A DNA stretch of 64,000 nt. Origin: Eledone cirrhosa. Lineage: Eukaryota. Location: contig OZ024743.1 of the NCBI GenBank assembly GCA_964016885.1, positions 170,686,001 to 170,750,000 on the forward strand. Reading direction: 5' to 3'. This document shows, piece by piece, positions 10,116-62,000 of the stretch. The position numbers and the translations under genes are program-made. Within the stretch, counting starts at the first letter, position 1. Each line of letters opens with the position of its first letter. The notes beneath the pieces are model-generated. The model was not told where the DNA came from and made no database searches. It was given only the letters and a program-made list of their open reading frames with translations.

Positions 10116-10413
10116 TATATATATATATCACCATGTAAAATGGTTGGTGATAGGAACGGCATCCAGCTTGCCAATTAAAAGGTTGGTGAGGCCCCTTCAG
10201 TAGTGTCAAAACATGACAACCTCCTTTGTGCTGGAGCCACAATAAAATGCACTCAGTAGAGCATAGGACATTATGGAGGCTCCCAACTTGTCTTGGAGCT
10301 CAGTAGTTATGCTTCAGTACTGATATGATCTGTGAAGGCCTGCCCAACCCTTGCTAGCAGAGAAAGTGAATATTAAATGATGTTGATAATGGTATGGTGA
10401 TTTATATATATAC

Positions 10414-11136
10414 ATATATCAAAGATATATATTGAGTTAGAAACTCAAAATAGTCTCTTACAATAAAATAGCTCAAGGAAAGAGATTTTTTCCGAGCTGT
10501 TTATTATAATTGAATATAAAAGAGAGATAAACACAGGCATATATGTGTTCAAATTGTAAGGGACCAGATTCGCTAAGGTGAAAAAGATACTAACTATGGA
10601 CAATAGGGTTTGCCAGACTCAATTTAAGAATAAATCAAGAAAATAAATACAAACCGGAATTGTGGTAACTACCAATCACCCAGACAGCGTTTGGAAATGC
10701 TGTTTCGCAATCCAATTGTGAAGCGAATTACCAATTCTTATTGCTCATCAGTGGGTAAAAAATTAGTAAACTCCTCACTTCTAAGTATATCAGAAAACTG
10801 AATAGTGTGCGTATATACAATAACGCACGTGGTATCAGAACCGAGTGTGTCTCACAAACTCACACCACTAAAAATAGCAGCCAAGTTTACTCGACATTTA
10901 AATTAGCTCAACAAATTAACAGAGCCGAATATATCAAAGATATATATTGAGTTAGAAACTCAAAATAGTCTCTTACAATAAAATAGCTCATGGAAAAAGA
11001 TTTTTCCGAGCCGTATATTATAATTGAATATAAAAGAGAATTAAACACAGGCATATATGTGTTCAAATCGAATCTGGTCCCTTACGATTTGAACACATAT
11101 ATGCCAGTGTTTATCTCTCTTTGATATTCAATTATA
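10414..11136 (-). mobile_element. Non-coding retrozyme-like / PLE-pLTR element: 515-bp unit, 140-bp terminal redundancy and inverted end
   Basis: Direct repeats 10414-10554 and 10929-11068. 11069-11136 is the reverse complement of 10505-10572. (TA)n on both flanks; contains a hammerhead. Confidence 0.8.
10678..10756 (-). ncRNA. Complete type I hammerhead ribozyme
   Basis: ACCCA-CUGAUGA-GCAAU..AUUGC-GAA-ACAGC(10-nt loop)GCUGU-C^-UGGGU. All three stems pair; GUC triplet at 10683-10685. Confidence 0.9.
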
Positions 11137-11229
11137 TATATATATCTAATTTCACACATTTCTCTTGGTATTTACAGTTAAACTACTGAAGTTATTATTT
11201 TTTATGATAATGTATCAGTGTGAATCAGG

Positions 11230-12810
11230 ATGTTGGTGAAAAGTGTGTTTTGACTGGCACCAGTGCACTTAGACTTGCTGACACCCAGGAAATACTACTA
11301 TGAGAGGTCAATGAATGTGGAAAATGAATAGAAGGAAGAAGATTCAACAAGGGTTGACTCATAAAATAGACAGTTACTGAGTCAAAGAAGCAAATATGGT
11401 TCTGAAAATAGAAAGCTGCTGGACTGTCAAGGATAGTCACTGAGCTGCTAAGATTCTCTGGCAAAGTTGAGCTACTCATCCACATAGTTAATCAGGATAA
11501 TACATGATGTTGTAATATCTAATGACGAATGTAGCAACAATTTTAAGCCTTAGTAGTTGCTCCTTTCCAAAATGATTAATTGGAAAGGTGCAACTACTGA
11601 GGCTTAAAATTAATGGATTAAGTTATGAAGGTGTTTGAGAGTTAACAACTAATTATGGAAAGCGTCAAATTAATGGCTTTCTCTTAATGAGATAACTACA
11701 AGAGAAGTTCCTAATTAAGTGTAAGCCCCTATACCTAGCTTTTGTAGATCTGGAAAAGGCTTTTGACAGAGTTTCACTGTCTGTTATCTGGTGGTCCTTA
11801 AGAAAACTGGATGTAGATGAGTGTTTTGTGAGAGCAGTGCAAGCCATGTACAGAGGTTCTGTCAGTAGGTAACAAGTTTAATGAGGAATTCAATATGCAG
11901 GTGGGTATTCATCAAGGCTCAGTCTTCAAGCCCCTCATGCTTGTCATAGTTCTCCAAGACTTAACTGAAGAAATTAAGACTGGCTGTCCATGACTACTGG
12001 TGAATCTACAGAAAAGCTAGAAAAGAAATTCCTGTTGTAGAAACAAAACTTAGAATCAAAGAGGAGTAAACTTAGCAAAGACCAAAGTTTTAGTAAGTAG
12101 GAAAGAAAACAGGACTTTGGCTCCAGCAAGAAGGTGATCATATGTCAAAATGACATGGGTATGAACTTTATATAATTTACCCAATGTAAAAAATGTGAGC
12201 GCAAGAAATGTAGTAGGATAGCAGGTGGGTTAACAGAAAGGCTAAACTTTGCATGTGGTAGTTGGTAGTAAGAACACTAGTGAAATAAATTTATTTCAAT
12301 CCCAGGAAGGTACCATAAAAGTAGTTGATAGTTTCTGTTACCTAGGCAACCTATTGAGCAGTAGAGGAGGATGCTCTGAAAACAGTAGTTAGAATAAGAA
12401 TAGGATGGGGAAAGTTCAGGGAACTACTTACCTCTGTTGACAACAATGGGATTTTCTCTCGAAGCAAAGGGAAGATGTTACATGGCAGTGGAGGTTGGAG
12501 AAAAAGGAAACATGCTTGCTTCATTGGATGTATAATGATGAATCATGGATAAACTGAAAGAAAAACTGGGTGTAAGAGGAATCAGATGTAGTCAATGAGT
12601 GTACATGGTATGGATATATGATGCATATGGCTGATGATCTTTGAACGATGAAGTGCCAGTGGATGGAAGCTATAGTAGGGGACCTGGGCAGAAGTGATGA
12701 ATGTTGATCTCAAAGCACTGAGTCTCGCAGAGGTGATGGGAGAAACACAATAAGTGTAAGTATTGAAGAAGATCCATCCAGCAACAAGAAAAGATGATGA
12801 TGATGATATC
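11230..12810 (+). mobile_element. Degenerate RTE LINE
   Basis: LAFVDLEKAFDRV at ~11735-11773, finger remnant, (GAT)n tail at ~12794-12808. Confidence 0.85.
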
Positions 12811-28109: not shown

Positions 28110-28169
28110 TATTTCATTATATATATTTCAAGGATACTAATTTATAGTATGCTTTCATCAGATAAAATA
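28110..28169 (-). ncRNA. Minimal type I hammerhead with intact core
   Basis: UAUUUUAU-CUGAUGA-AAG.AUACUA(UAAAU)UAGUAU.CUU-GAA-AUAUAUAU-A^-AUGAAAUA. Confidence 0.8.
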
Positions 28170-42579: not shown

Positions 42580-44790
42580 CGCTCAAACTGTACGGTCGTT
42601 ATATTGACAACTGTATCAGGGCCACAACCCTCACCCGAGAACAGCTTGACTCCTTTCTCTCCTTCTTCTGCTCCTTTCACCCCTCCCTCCACTTCAGCAC
42701 CTCTATCTCCACCACCACATCCAACTCTTGGACATCTCCATTGCCATTGACCCCTCCCACCGCTCCCTCATTACCTCTGATTTCTTTAAACCCACTGACT
42801 CCCACTCCTACCTCCACTTCACCTCCTCCTACCCTACACACACCAAACGTTCCATTCCTTAATCCCAACCCTGCCAGATCCGCTGCCTTTGCAGCCAAGA
42901 TGCTGACTTCAAGACCCAGGCTCTTTCTCTGGTCCACCATTTCACCCAAGGGAGTTACCCCCCTCCCTCGTCCATGCCGCCCTCACAGTCTGTCGCTCCA
43001 CCGCCCTCAGTTCACGCCCCCACCCCCCAACCACCGTCTCATCCTTCGCCTCTTTTGATGCCTCCAGTCCAACCCCTCCACCTTCCCACTCCCACCCCTC
43101 CCCTCCTTCAAGCGTGCATGCAACCTCCACAATCTCCTCGTCCGTAGCTCCCTACCCCCAACCCATGTTCCCTTCCCTGCTCCAGACCTCGCTGCCACAC
43201 CTGCCTCCACACTACCAACACCACCACCTTCTAGGGTCCCAACGGCCACTCTCTCTCTCTGTCCAGCATACCTTTCGCTGCACCTCCTCCAGCCTTGTCT
43301 ACGGACTCCGCTGCACGGAGTGCGGCGCAACCTATGTTGAACAGACCGGACGTCATCTGGCAGATCTGTTCACCAAGCACCTCCAAGACATTCGTCTCGG
43401 TAGGAGTTCCACATCGCCCACCACTTTGGCTCCGCCTGACACTCCTCTCGCAACCTAACCATCTACGGCCTGATTGAGTGCCATGGGAGCCTCAACATCC
43501 GACTTAGGGTCGAACAGCACACCATCTTCACCTTACATCTGCACCCCGGTTTGAACACCCCACTCCAACCCCTCTTCCTCTAGCCTTCGACCAGTCCCCC
43601 CCCTCTACCATGCCCCTATACTAACACCACTAAAACACTCCCAACTTTAACAGTCCCCTCACCTTCCAGCCACTCCCACACCCACATTGGACCAACCCAC
43701 CATTAATAATACTAATACCCCCACCCACTCCTCATTCCACACACATGCACCCACACCCTAAACATGCACACACACCAGTATATATACACTCACTCATACA
43801 CATGTACACAGCACCTTCGCCCCCCTCTCTCTTCCCCCATACTACCAACACCACCTCCACCCACATACCCATATCCTACTAACACCCCCCTCAACCCTCT
43901 CCTTCAACTTTTCACACTGACCCACCTCCTCTCCCGTCCACCCCACCTCTGCACACACATACAGGCCGCCCTTTCACACCTGTCAGACTGCTCCACCACC
44001 AATCTTGACTGTTCAAATCCTCCCTTCCCTCTCTCTCACACATCGCCCTGCCATCTCCACCCCTAGTCTTGACCACTTCCTGTTGCGCGTGCCCCACAAC
44101 TTTCTACTTCCTCCTCACCATTCCCATGGACGCTACTGCAGAGTTTACACGGATATCTATGATTACAACCCGGAACAGTGCCATCATTTTACACACGCAC
44201 ACCGGAAAACCATTCAGGAACATAGACACACACAAACACTTACACCATTTTTGCACGCACGCAACCATACATTCCAACGTATCCACACAAACACACACGT
44301 GCGCACCCTCACATACACCCACTCTGACTCTGGATTCCGCATGCTCTCCTCCACCCAATCCGACCCCTTTCCATCCACATGCACACACAGACTACACCCC
44401 AACATACACAATGTTTTTCCAAAACCCAAGCACACAACCCTGCTCTCCCCAGACTCACACATCCACACATAAACACCTCACCTTCCACCCACCCCACTCG
44501 GATCCCTTTTTTCCTTCCCCCCTCTCTCTCCCTCTCCCCTCCACTCACCCCCCATGCACCACCACCTCTACACACCTCACAACTTGTTTTTAACTTTAAT
44601 TTTCCACTTCATGTTTTATTTTTTCCCCACTAACTCCCCTTCACTCCCTCACGGAGTCCCCCCCCACTTTCCTGATGAAGGGCTTATGCCCGAAACGTCA
44701 CACCCACGCCCTCCAGTCTCACTAAGCGTGATCCTAAAACCTTTTGTAACTTTTTGTACTCCTGCGTTGTTGTTGTTTTTTACTTTCCTA
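42580..44790 (+). mobile_element. C-rich Penelope-like element (RT end, GIY-YIG, long 3' tail)
   Basis: YGRYIDNCI and F.CTSS.LVYGLRCTECGATYV.QTGR.L...F..H motifs; hammerhead core at 44672; bounded by (TA)n. Confidence 0.85.
44672..44699 (+). ncRNA. Minimal PLE-type hammerhead core (stem I not evident)
   Basis: CUGAUGA-A-GGGC(UUAU)GCCC-GAA-ACGU-C. Confidence 0.65.
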
Positions 44791-57623: not shown

Positions 57624-57689
57624 TATTTTATTATATATATTTCAAGGGCGACCAAGGTAAATTATGGTGTGCTTTCATCAGATAAAATA
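57624..57689 (-). ncRNA. Minimal type I hammerhead
   Basis: UAUUUUAU-CUGAUGA-AAG...CUU-GAA-AUAUAUAU-A^-AUAAAAUA. Confidence 0.78.
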
Positions 57690-58700: not shown

Positions 58701-58766
58701 TATTTTATCTGATGAAAGCGCACCATAATTTACCTTGGTCACCCTTGAAATATATATAATAAAATA
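58701..58766 (+). ncRNA. Minimal type I hammerhead
   Basis: CTGATGA at 58709-58715, GAAA at 58747-58750, 8-bp stem I tattttat/ataaaata. Confidence 0.78.
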
Positions 58767-59809: not shown

Positions 59810-62000
59810 CAGACCCCACTCCTGACTACCAACAACTCATATCCTCCACCATCCACCAGCTCATCTCCCCCTCTCTCCTACCCCCCCCCCCCCCAGCCAC
59901 CAACCTTATAGTATGCACCCCTCGTACACCTACCATCTACTTCCTCCCCAAAATACACAAATAAAATAATCCTGGCCGTCTTGTCGTTTCCATGTGCAAC
60001 TGCCCCACCAAGATCATCTCTGAATATTTAGATACCATCCTTGCCCCGTTAGTCGTCAACATCCCCTCTCACATTCACGATATTAATCATGCCCTTAGAC
60101 TCTTTGACTCCTTCTTCCCTCCTGGTCCCTCTCACCTTCTCTTCACCTTGGATATCACTTCTCTCTATACCGTCATCCCTCATGATGAGTCTCCTCGCTT
60201 TCCAACACTTTTTAGACTTACGCCCTACCCCTTGCCCCAGCACTACCACTCTTCTCCATCTGGCTGAGCTTGTTTTGTCCCTCAATGGGTTTTCCTTTTC
60301 TGGTGAATTTTACCAGCAGGTCTCTGGTGAAGCGATGGGAACCAGAATGGGACCAAACTACGCCAACTTATTTGTTGGCTACGTCGAAACCCAGATCTTC
60401 TCCCAGTACGCCGGACCAACTCCAGAGCTATACTGTCGTTATATCGATGACTGTATCAGTGCTACCTCTCTACCACGTGAACAGCTCGACTGCTTTCTAT
60501 CTTTTGTCCAAACTTTTCATCCTGCTATCACCTTCATCACCTCCGTCTCCAATTCTTCTGTCCCTTTTCGCGATATCTCTCTATCAATCACTCTCACCAC
60601 ACCCTCTCTACTTTTATCTTCTATAAACCGACAGACTCCCACTCTTACCTTGACTTCACCTACTCCCATCCAACCCACATCAAACACTCCATACCCTATT
60701 CCCAATTCCTTTGTCTTTGTCGACTCTGTAGCCAGGACCACGATTTCGAAACCCATTCCCTTCATGGCTTCTCGCGTCATCCAGTGTGGATATCTCGCCA
60801 CCCTGATCCAAGCTGCTCTCACCCACACCCGTGAAACCGACCTCCTGATATGTAGTTCCTTCTAGTCCTCTCCTATGAATCCACCCAGCTCTCATCCTTG
60901 TTCTCGTCCCTGCTGTAACATTTGTCCTTTCATTTCCACCCTCACCACTCTCTCAGGCCCCAACAGGTCATTCCATATCTGTCACTCCTTCACCTGCACC
61001 TTCACCCATGTTATGCCCTCCGGTGTTCCCTTTAGGGTCCTTATACATCGGACAAACAGGACGCCATTGGGCAGACCATTTTGCTGAACATTTGAGGGAC
61101 ATACAACTTGGTTTGGATACTCCTGTCACCCATCATTTCTGTTCTCCTGGTCACTCTTCCCTACATGTCTAAGTCCTGGGTGTCCTTTTACATCACGGAT
61201 CACAGGCCTCACGCACCAGGACTGAACAGTCTGATTTACCGCCTTAGGTCTTCTTTCCCTCTTGGACTTAACTCCCCTCCCCAATTTCTTTAATACCCCA
61301 TCTGTTATCACACACATGCTTGTATATTCACCCTTAGATTCCTATGGTCAAAAACATATACTTTTACAGCTAATACAGACCAACAAAATATACACACTCC
61401 CCTTTTCCCTTCACAGCTCTGTCTACACACACATTTATATTAACATACTTTGCTCATAGCTTTGTACTTACAAGCACACACACTCTTTTATTTACATATA
61501 CACACCCATATCCTCTTAGCTTCGTACGGACATATAATAACACACACACACACATGTGCACAAGTATAACTCTTTATACAAAACGTTTTTTTTTCCATTT
61601 CAGGTAGACGTGCTCCATCATCCACTTTTCTAAAAAAATATATCATACACAAAACGCCAGCATCAACAGTTTCCCAAGAGATGTCAACATGAATGGACCT
61701 GTTATTTTTCTCTAAAAACATTTTTTTCAATTCCACCCCACCTGTCCCTTCAATCAATCAATTTCTCATTCTTTCTTCTGATGAAGGACTAGCGACTGAA
61801 ACGTTAAGATGCTCTTCCTACTATTTCAAGCTTTAATCTAATATATTCCTTCCATATACTGTACCAATTGTGTTATTTCTGTTTACCTTTTACATATATA
61901 TATGGCTTCCCGCTTCATCCAGCGTGGATGCTCCCCACCCTGATCCAAGCTGCCCTCACCCGCGCCGTGAAACCAACCATACCACAGCCCTCTCACCTCA
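59810..62000 (+). mobile_element. Penelope-like element (RT, GIY-YIG remnant, tail), frameshifted
   Basis: YFLPKIHK...PGR, LDITSLYTVIPH, G.AMGTRMGPNYANLFVG, RYIDD; hammerhead at 61774; 61930-61980 repeats ~60797-60845. Confidence 0.9.
61774..61809 (+). ncRNA. Minimal PLE-type hammerhead
   Basis: UCUU-CUGAUGA-AG...CU-GAA-ACGU-U^-AAGA; weak stem II. Confidence 0.65.

What the first reader, a model, noticed from the sequence alone, without database searches (positions are those of the whole stretch)
10414..11136. Non-coding 515-nt terminally redundant element with a complete hammerhead: candidate cephalopod retrozyme / circular-RNA retroelement
Seen: a 515-bp unit whose first ~140 bp are repeated (10414-10554 and 10929-11068), followed by an inverted copy of 10505-10572. 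It has (TA)n on both sides, no ORF, and a minus-strand type I hammerhead with canonical CUGAUGA/GAAA, three paired stems and GUC (cut between 10683 and 10682). Known: Penelope pLTRs usually carry minimal hammerheads, and non-autonomous hammerhead retrozymes in other animals accumulate as circular RNA. Inference: the ~1.27-unit length fits a borrowed (probably Penelope) RT running more than once around a ~515-nt circle, and the inverted end is a PLE-like integration signature. The full stem III suggests it could cleave as a monomer.
Basis: partly seen in the sequence, partly recalled or inferred. Interest (0 to 1): 0.88.

Follow-up and report, generated by a model that had tools for sequence, protein, structure and literature searches.

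The report
Penelope-spread hammerhead retrozyme family
This 723-base insert is one of thousands of copies of a small non-coding repeat carrying a hammerhead self-cutting RNA motif, likely pasted into TA repeats by a borrowed Penelope-type reverse transcriptase that likely re-reads one unit-length, possibly circular RNA; the kind is already known from other animals.

Summary
The genome holds thousands of candidate copies (598 exact hammerhead-motif matches, 0 control) and at least four sister families of 498-560 nt. None examined is joined to an ORF. Hammerhead stems covary across families, and one family has fixed the U3-A8 core swap, so the ribozyme is under selection. Insertions show Penelope anatomy: TA target, two fixed start points about 90 nt apart, and mostly one tailed plus one tailless arm. 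Tandem units within an insertion differ about as much as the newly made inverted arm, so each insertion was likely copied from one monomer. A covalent circle is unproven. No RNA data were available, and this family rarely crosses the cut site twice (1 of 12; sister D 7 of 9). Predicted folding sequesters the ribozyme, and the helper element was not found. Verdict: new member of the known metazoan non-LTR retrozymes, which are Penelope derivatives. The scan has noted such elements on other DNA.

The parts
10414..10928 (-). Full 515-nt unit; RNA sense is the minus strand, so 10414 is the RNA 3' end (reverse-transcription start 2)
   Evidence: all 30 loci of the full-unit search start at unit position 1-9
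10929..11068 (-). Partial second unit (unit 1-141), likely a second pass over the same template
11069..11136 (+). Inverted tailless arm (unit 159 to 92), likely primed from the other target strand at start point 1
10676..10758 (-). Type I hammerhead, canonical core, cut between 10683 and 10682
10759..10780 (-). Upstream segment complementary to loop II (10718-10737): predicted pseudoknot or ribozyme-off pairing, present in the sister families
10414..10504 (-). 'Tail' of about 90 nt between the two start points
10470..10498 (-). GGCUC..GAGCU hairpin 1, just 3' of start point 1 (second copy at 10985-11012)
10903..10926 (-). GGCUC..GAGCUAA hairpin 2, which follows start point 2 only when a unit is followed by another unit or closed into a circle
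10403..10413 (.). (TA)n target remnant, left
11137..11146 (.). (TA)n target remnant, right

Best explanation
This is one old copy of a high-copy, non-coding, hammerhead-bearing repeat (a non-LTR retrozyme) that is likely inserted into TA microsatellites by a Penelope-like RT/GIY-YIG protein borrowed in trans, which likely copies one unit-length RNA more than once. Shown: anatomy, copy number, sister families, two fixed start points, stem covariation, and near-identity of units within an insertion. Inferred: tandem copies are transcribed and cut by the hammerhead into 515-nt monomers. These are closed, either covalently or only held by stem I. The protein binds a GGCUC..GAGCU hairpin and starts internally a few bases 5' of it. 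One nicked target strand primes at start 2 and runs 1-1.5 units; the other primes at start 1 and gives the inverted arm; the two cDNA ends are joined. A covalent circle is about 55% likely, a stem-I-clamped linear monomer with an end-to-end jump about 25%.
For: 3590 candidates, 40 scored, 88-94% identity apart from the self match; 598 vs 0 motif matches. TA at the fixed end in 23 of 30 loci against 2.5% background. One tailed plus one tailless arm in 30 of 41 inversions in family A, 12 of 17 in B, 12 of 15 in C, as described for PLEs (PMC8557442) and explained by two internal RT starts (PMC11167929). Stem I differs in sequence but stays paired in A, B, C, D, E; 6 of 22 pairs change on both sides and 94.7% of cells are paired against 29-40% for slid controls; family D carries U3-A8 in all 37 cores matched. 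Within-insertion divergence direct vs inverted: A 0.051/0.059, B 0.060/0.050, C 0.054/0.054, E 0.007/0.007, D 0.024/0.017, with no difference recurring more than 3 times. E units share 3.0% non-majority sites but differ by 0.7%. D and E hold dimers to 3.4-mers. Neptune-type PLEs are abundant in the genome: 10595 GIY-YIG candidates, 150 scored.
Against: No autonomous element with a homologous terminal repeat was found among 50 PLE loci. Family A shows no intact dimer among 50 two-pass arms, so its source of monomers is not seen. Predicted ensembles do not form the active hammerhead. In the one reconstituted PLE, uncut RNA is the main substrate and cleavage is dispensable (PMC11167929). Eight of nine Xenopus dimers tested showed no cleavage (bioRxiv 10.64898/2026.07.22.740005). 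Equal divergences would also arise if source arrays were always very young.
Confidence: 0.78

Rival explanations
1. A non-autonomous PLE copied from linear read-through transcripts of genomic tandem copies. The hammerhead, or a promoter near it, only sets the 5' end, and no closed monomer is used.
For: Family A arms stop just before the second cut site (11 of 12), capping length near 515+269. One arm (L198) begins exactly at the cut. Uncut RNA is the main PLE substrate in vitro.
Against: It predicts inherited differences between first and second units, which were not seen. Subfamily variants are shared by both units. Arrays could only shrink, yet 3.4-mers of near-identical units exist. Only 3 of 29 distinct TA-proximal junctions fall exactly at the cut, 11 lie 2-14 nt past it and 15 lie 1-9 nt short (read by eye).
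Confidence: 0.15
2. The copies are 5'-truncated terminal repeats of an ordinary ORF-bearing Penelope element.
For: Same end anatomy as PLEs; PLE ORF fragments lie near a few loci.
Against: Unit end joins unit start with no ORF in all five families. The neighbouring ORFs inspected (L017/L184, L051/L081, L058/L111, L148, L194, L198) have their own different ends and are separated by TA runs; L096/L097 and L231 were not inspected base by base.
Confidence: 0.04
3. The hammerhead is a decaying passenger, and tandem units come from DNA-level duplication.
For: Family B has A at position 4 and some C copies have C; the active fold is not the predicted minimum.
Against: Compensatory changes in stems I and III and the C3-G8 to U3-A8 swap. 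Partial units end at variable points and join inverted arms, which fits insertion-time synthesis.
Confidence: 0.03

Closest known systems
Metazoan non-LTR retrozymes (Cervera and de la Pena 2020, PMC7229834; coral, mussel, axolotl)
   Same: Non-coding AT-rich repeat units with a canonical type I hammerhead; PLEs proposed as helpers; RT of a monomer RNA proposed to give tandem cDNA.
   Different: Units are 498-560 nt against about 170-400 nt there. Most copies are dispersed 1-1.5-unit insertions with inverted arm and tail, not arrays. The hammerhead is predicted blocked by self-pairing, which that paper reports for plant retrozymes, viroids and only some mussel circles. No RNA has been shown here.
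Non-LTR retrozymes as non-autonomous pLTR derivatives of PLEs (Li, Clavereau, Pollet 2026, bioRxiv 10.64898/2026.07.22.740005)
   Same: Same overall reading: monomers, dimers and multimers of 51-972 bp, related to PLE terminal repeats.
   Different: Their 35 genomes include no mollusc. They infer from co-occurrence and Xenopus pLTR homology, not insertion anatomy. This locus fails their 'active' criterion of two whole hammerheads in tandem, and no homologous autonomous pLTR was found here.
Endonuclease-bearing Penelope-like elements, Neptune-type (PMC8557442; mechanism PMC11167929)
   Same: Partial tandem, inverted truncated arm, tail at one end, (TA)n bias, hammerhead upstream of two internal RT start sites.
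   Different: No ORF; tail about 90 nt against 30-40 nt; full hammerhead, whereas the host's Neptune-type elements examined carry short degenerate motifs.
Non-autonomous Chlamys elements such as MRC1 (PMC8557442, passage)
   Same: Non-autonomous PLEs forming pLTRs and head-to-tail copies.
   Different: Green algae; most Chlamys lack canonical hammerheads; they show 3' similarity to identified autonomous partners.

Membership tests
Metazoan non-LTR retrozyme | Type I hammerhead in a short repeated unit | tested here: met
Metazoan non-LTR retrozyme | No coding capacity | tested here: met
   longest ATG ORF 34 aa; no attached PLE ORF
Metazoan non-LTR retrozyme | [quoted passage not shown] | tested here: inconclusive
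   Not met at this locus or in 50 two-pass arms of family A; met in sister families E (6 arms) and D. The sample is a small part of thousands of copies.
Metazoan non-LTR retrozyme | Self-cleavage of the RNA | not testable with these tools
   only covariation and folding predictions
Metazoan non-LTR retrozyme | Unit-length linear and circular RNA in tissues | not testable with these tools
   no RNA data could be examined
Penelope-like element | RT plus GIY-YIG ORF | tested here: not met
   so not an autonomous PLE
Penelope-like element | Partial tandem, inverted arm, tail at one end | tested here: met
Penelope-like element | (TA)n insertion bias (Neptune, Naiad) | tested here: met
   23 of 30 against 2.5% background
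Non-autonomous PLE derivative | Terminal homology to an autonomous partner | tested here: inconclusive
   none among 50 loci of 8 PLE families taken from the top 150 of 10595 candidates

The most novel reading that the evidence does not exclude
These families are a genomic record of a Penelope RT initiating internally on a hammerhead-closed RNA circle. A duplicated GGCUC..GAGCU hairpin marks both start sites, and the second hairpin exists only across the unit junction. How often the RT passes the cut site twice (A 1 of 12, E 8 of 15, D 7 of 9) reports how well each family's RNA is ligated, with a conserved anti-ribozyme pairing keeping the template uncut. This would give a minimal 500-nt substrate for the missing step in how PLE terminal repeats are regenerated.
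Probability: 0.35. Interest if true: 0.75.

Novelty: new member of a known kind. Interest (0 to 1): 0.48.

Why it matters
The class is known, but that PLE machinery mobilises animal retrozymes through a monomer or circle is still a proposal in the papers read. Here five families carry the PLE insertion signature, homogenised units, a candidate RT-start signal, and a young lineage (E, top copies 97-99% identical to the query) with dimers and trimers. That makes the step directly testable with a short RNA and a recombinant RT.

Tried and rejected
Rfam at gathering score: 0 hits; miRNA-family hits at 11009-11144 are just the inverted-arm hairpin. Sequencing runs: no RNA holder listed. The three listed runs of unrecorded kind are contigs of one sample; they show many matching contigs and one contig over 11075-11250, may be the source sample, and were not used as evidence. 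Helper search: GIY-YIG search, 50 PLE loci, profile of the units, tblastn of 8 PLE proteins against family loci and window found only nested neighbours. The PF26215 search was not possible, and the RVT_1 search was set with too strict a threshold and gave nothing. A sharp pile of 5' ends at the cut site was looked for and not found. The regex missed A/B/C hammerheads and was replaced; its start bins also mis-binned family E, whose second start is near 65. The distal part of the upstream-loop II pairing could not be counted on alignment A1 because of a register shift. L198 looked like an ORF-linked copy but is nested behind another element's end. The sequence look-up among earlier findings was blank. 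No complex or structure prediction was run.

Full report
Observation. The sequence and repeat search confirm a 515-nt unit (10414-10928), a direct repeat of its first 141 nt (10929-11068) and an inverted copy of unit 92-159 (11069-11136), between TA runs. The minus strand holds a canonical type I hammerhead cut between 10683 and 10682. The longest ATG ORF in a doubled unit is 34 aa. Rfam finds it only weakly. The host is a 3.0-Gb genome; 'cephalopod' was not tested.

Copy number and relatives. The unit gave 3590 candidates, of which 40 were scored, at 88-94% identity apart from the self match. An exact motif spanning stem I, CUGAUGA, stem II and GAAAC occurs 598 times, control 0. Matches beside PLE loci led to sister families B (498 nt, about 70% identical), C (512 nt, about 80%), D (560 nt) and E (534 nt, young). 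In all, unit end joins unit start without an ORF. PLE ORF fragments near some loci were inspected at L017/L184, L051/L081, L058/L111, L148, L194 and L198 and are separate elements nested at TA runs; L096/L097 and L231 were not inspected base by base.

Insertion anatomy. All 30 loci of the full-unit search start at unit 1-9, which that query favours. With a mid-unit query, segment starts were 32 at 1-10, 25 at 85-95 and 14 elsewhere, of 71, some loci repeated. Head-to-head insertions pair a tailed arm with a tailless one in 30 of 41 (A), 12 of 17 (B) and 12 of 15 (C). The fixed end sits in TA repeats in 23 of 30 loci against 2.5% background. This matches the PLE pattern of partial tandem, inverted arm, one-sided tail and (TA)n bias (PMC8557442, passages). 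It also matches the finding that a PLE protein nicks and extends both strands, starts at two internal sites that bound the tail, and needs RNA well beyond the start site (PMC11167929, parts 1-2 of 4). In A to E both start points lie a few bases 5' of a GGCUC..GAGCU element (the window's first copy has AGCUC), predicted to form a hairpin. The second one belongs to the next unit, so it follows the start only in tandem or closed RNA. That it is the RT signal is inference.

The ribozyme is under selection. Stem I reads differently but pairs in each family. On 22 A/B/C copies, 94.7% of cells are paired, 6 of 22 pairs change on both sides, and slid controls give 29-40% (relatedness inflates the shuffle control). 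D has U3-A8 in all 37 cores matched, a known active covariation (PMC3088659, passages). D and E have a 64-nt stem III insert. Against this: B has A4 and some C copies C4. The monomer folds strongly as a circle (z -6.3, 40 shuffles), but stems II and III have probability at most 0.05, and the constrained hammerhead is 3.4 kcal/mol above the free local fold. An upstream segment can pair with loop II by 5-15 bp in all 85 regions examined (no chance control, and 5-bp runs as in E are weak). It may be a pseudoknot, which the folding program cannot show, or an off-switch.

Template. The inverted arm is presumably made at insertion, so it dates each copy. Direct units differ from each other about as much as from inverted arms: A 0.051 vs 0.059 (21 and 51 pairs), B 0.060 vs 0.050, C 0.054 vs 0.054, E 0.007 vs 0.007, D 0.024 vs 0.017. 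Pairs from one insertion are not independent. No oriented difference recurs more than 3 times, and in E subfamily variants are shared by all units. This fits re-copying of one monomer; always-young source arrays are not excluded.

Circle or not. In family A, arms entering the 65 nt before the cut stop there 11 of 24 times on first encounter and 11 of 12 on a later one (Fisher p 0.011; pooled A, B, C, E p 0.003; two control windows p 0.3-0.8). The window was chosen; arms forced by the query or cut by locus ends were left out. E passes 8 of 15 and D 7 of 9. No A arm among 50 two-pass arms holds two whole hammerheads. Junctions are not piled at the cut: 3 of 29 distinct junctions lie at it, 11 beyond and 15 short (by eye); L198 starts exactly there. 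So the first crossing is common and the second depends on family. This fits a cleaved monomer clamped by stem I with one jump, a circle on which displacement synthesis stalls at the GC step found there in every family, or a mixture.

Helper. The genome has abundant Neptune-type PLEs, some with long open frames, their own 40-70-nt tails and short degenerate hammerhead-like motifs. None of 50 loci has a terminal repeat homologous to the unit. The helper's clade is inferred from anatomy only.

Known work. Non-LTR retrozymes, their circles and the proposed PLE helper: PMC7229834 (parts 2-4 of 6). PLE origin: bioRxiv 10.64898/2026.07.22.740005 (parts 1-3 of 5). Four searches for a cephalopod or Neptune-linked description listed none, judged from the listings plus the two papers read; supplements and repeat databases were not seen and may hold these families. 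Earlier scan notes report similar elements in other genomes; they were read after my tests.

Verdict. A real element and a new member of a known kind. It works like a non-autonomous PLE and meets the sequence criteria of a retrozyme at superfamily level; cleavage and circular RNA are untested. Interest 0.48.

Noticed in passing
window 28114-28165 (-), 57628-57685 (-), 58705-58762 (+): Three short hammerheads of another family (stem III TATATA); two lie in inverted orientation near a PLE RT remnant at 59923-60810.
   Followed up: no
window 42585-43419: Another decayed PLE RT/GIY-YIG remnant.
   Followed up: no
window 11539-11611 and about 11696-12550: A 32-bp inverted repeat followed by frame-broken pieces that look like a LINE reverse transcriptase (family label from recall).
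   Followed up: no
window about 10330-10382: Separate high-copy short repeat left of the element.
   Followed up: no
L141-L170 (family E), e.g. L164:1500-3350: Young sister family with near-identical 3.4-unit arrays and a long G-U-rich stem III; the best material for experiments.
   Followed up: partly
L231-L260 (family D): Family-wide U3-A8 hammerhead core and frequent full dimers.
   Followed up: partly
unit positions 157-167 (window about 10570-10580): Many inverted arms end here in A, B, C and E; the hazard peaks 100-119 nt before the cut. Cause unknown.
   Followed up: partly
L061, L063: Neptune-type PLE copies with open frames of 938 and 1096 codons; candidate helper proteins to test.
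   Followed up: partly
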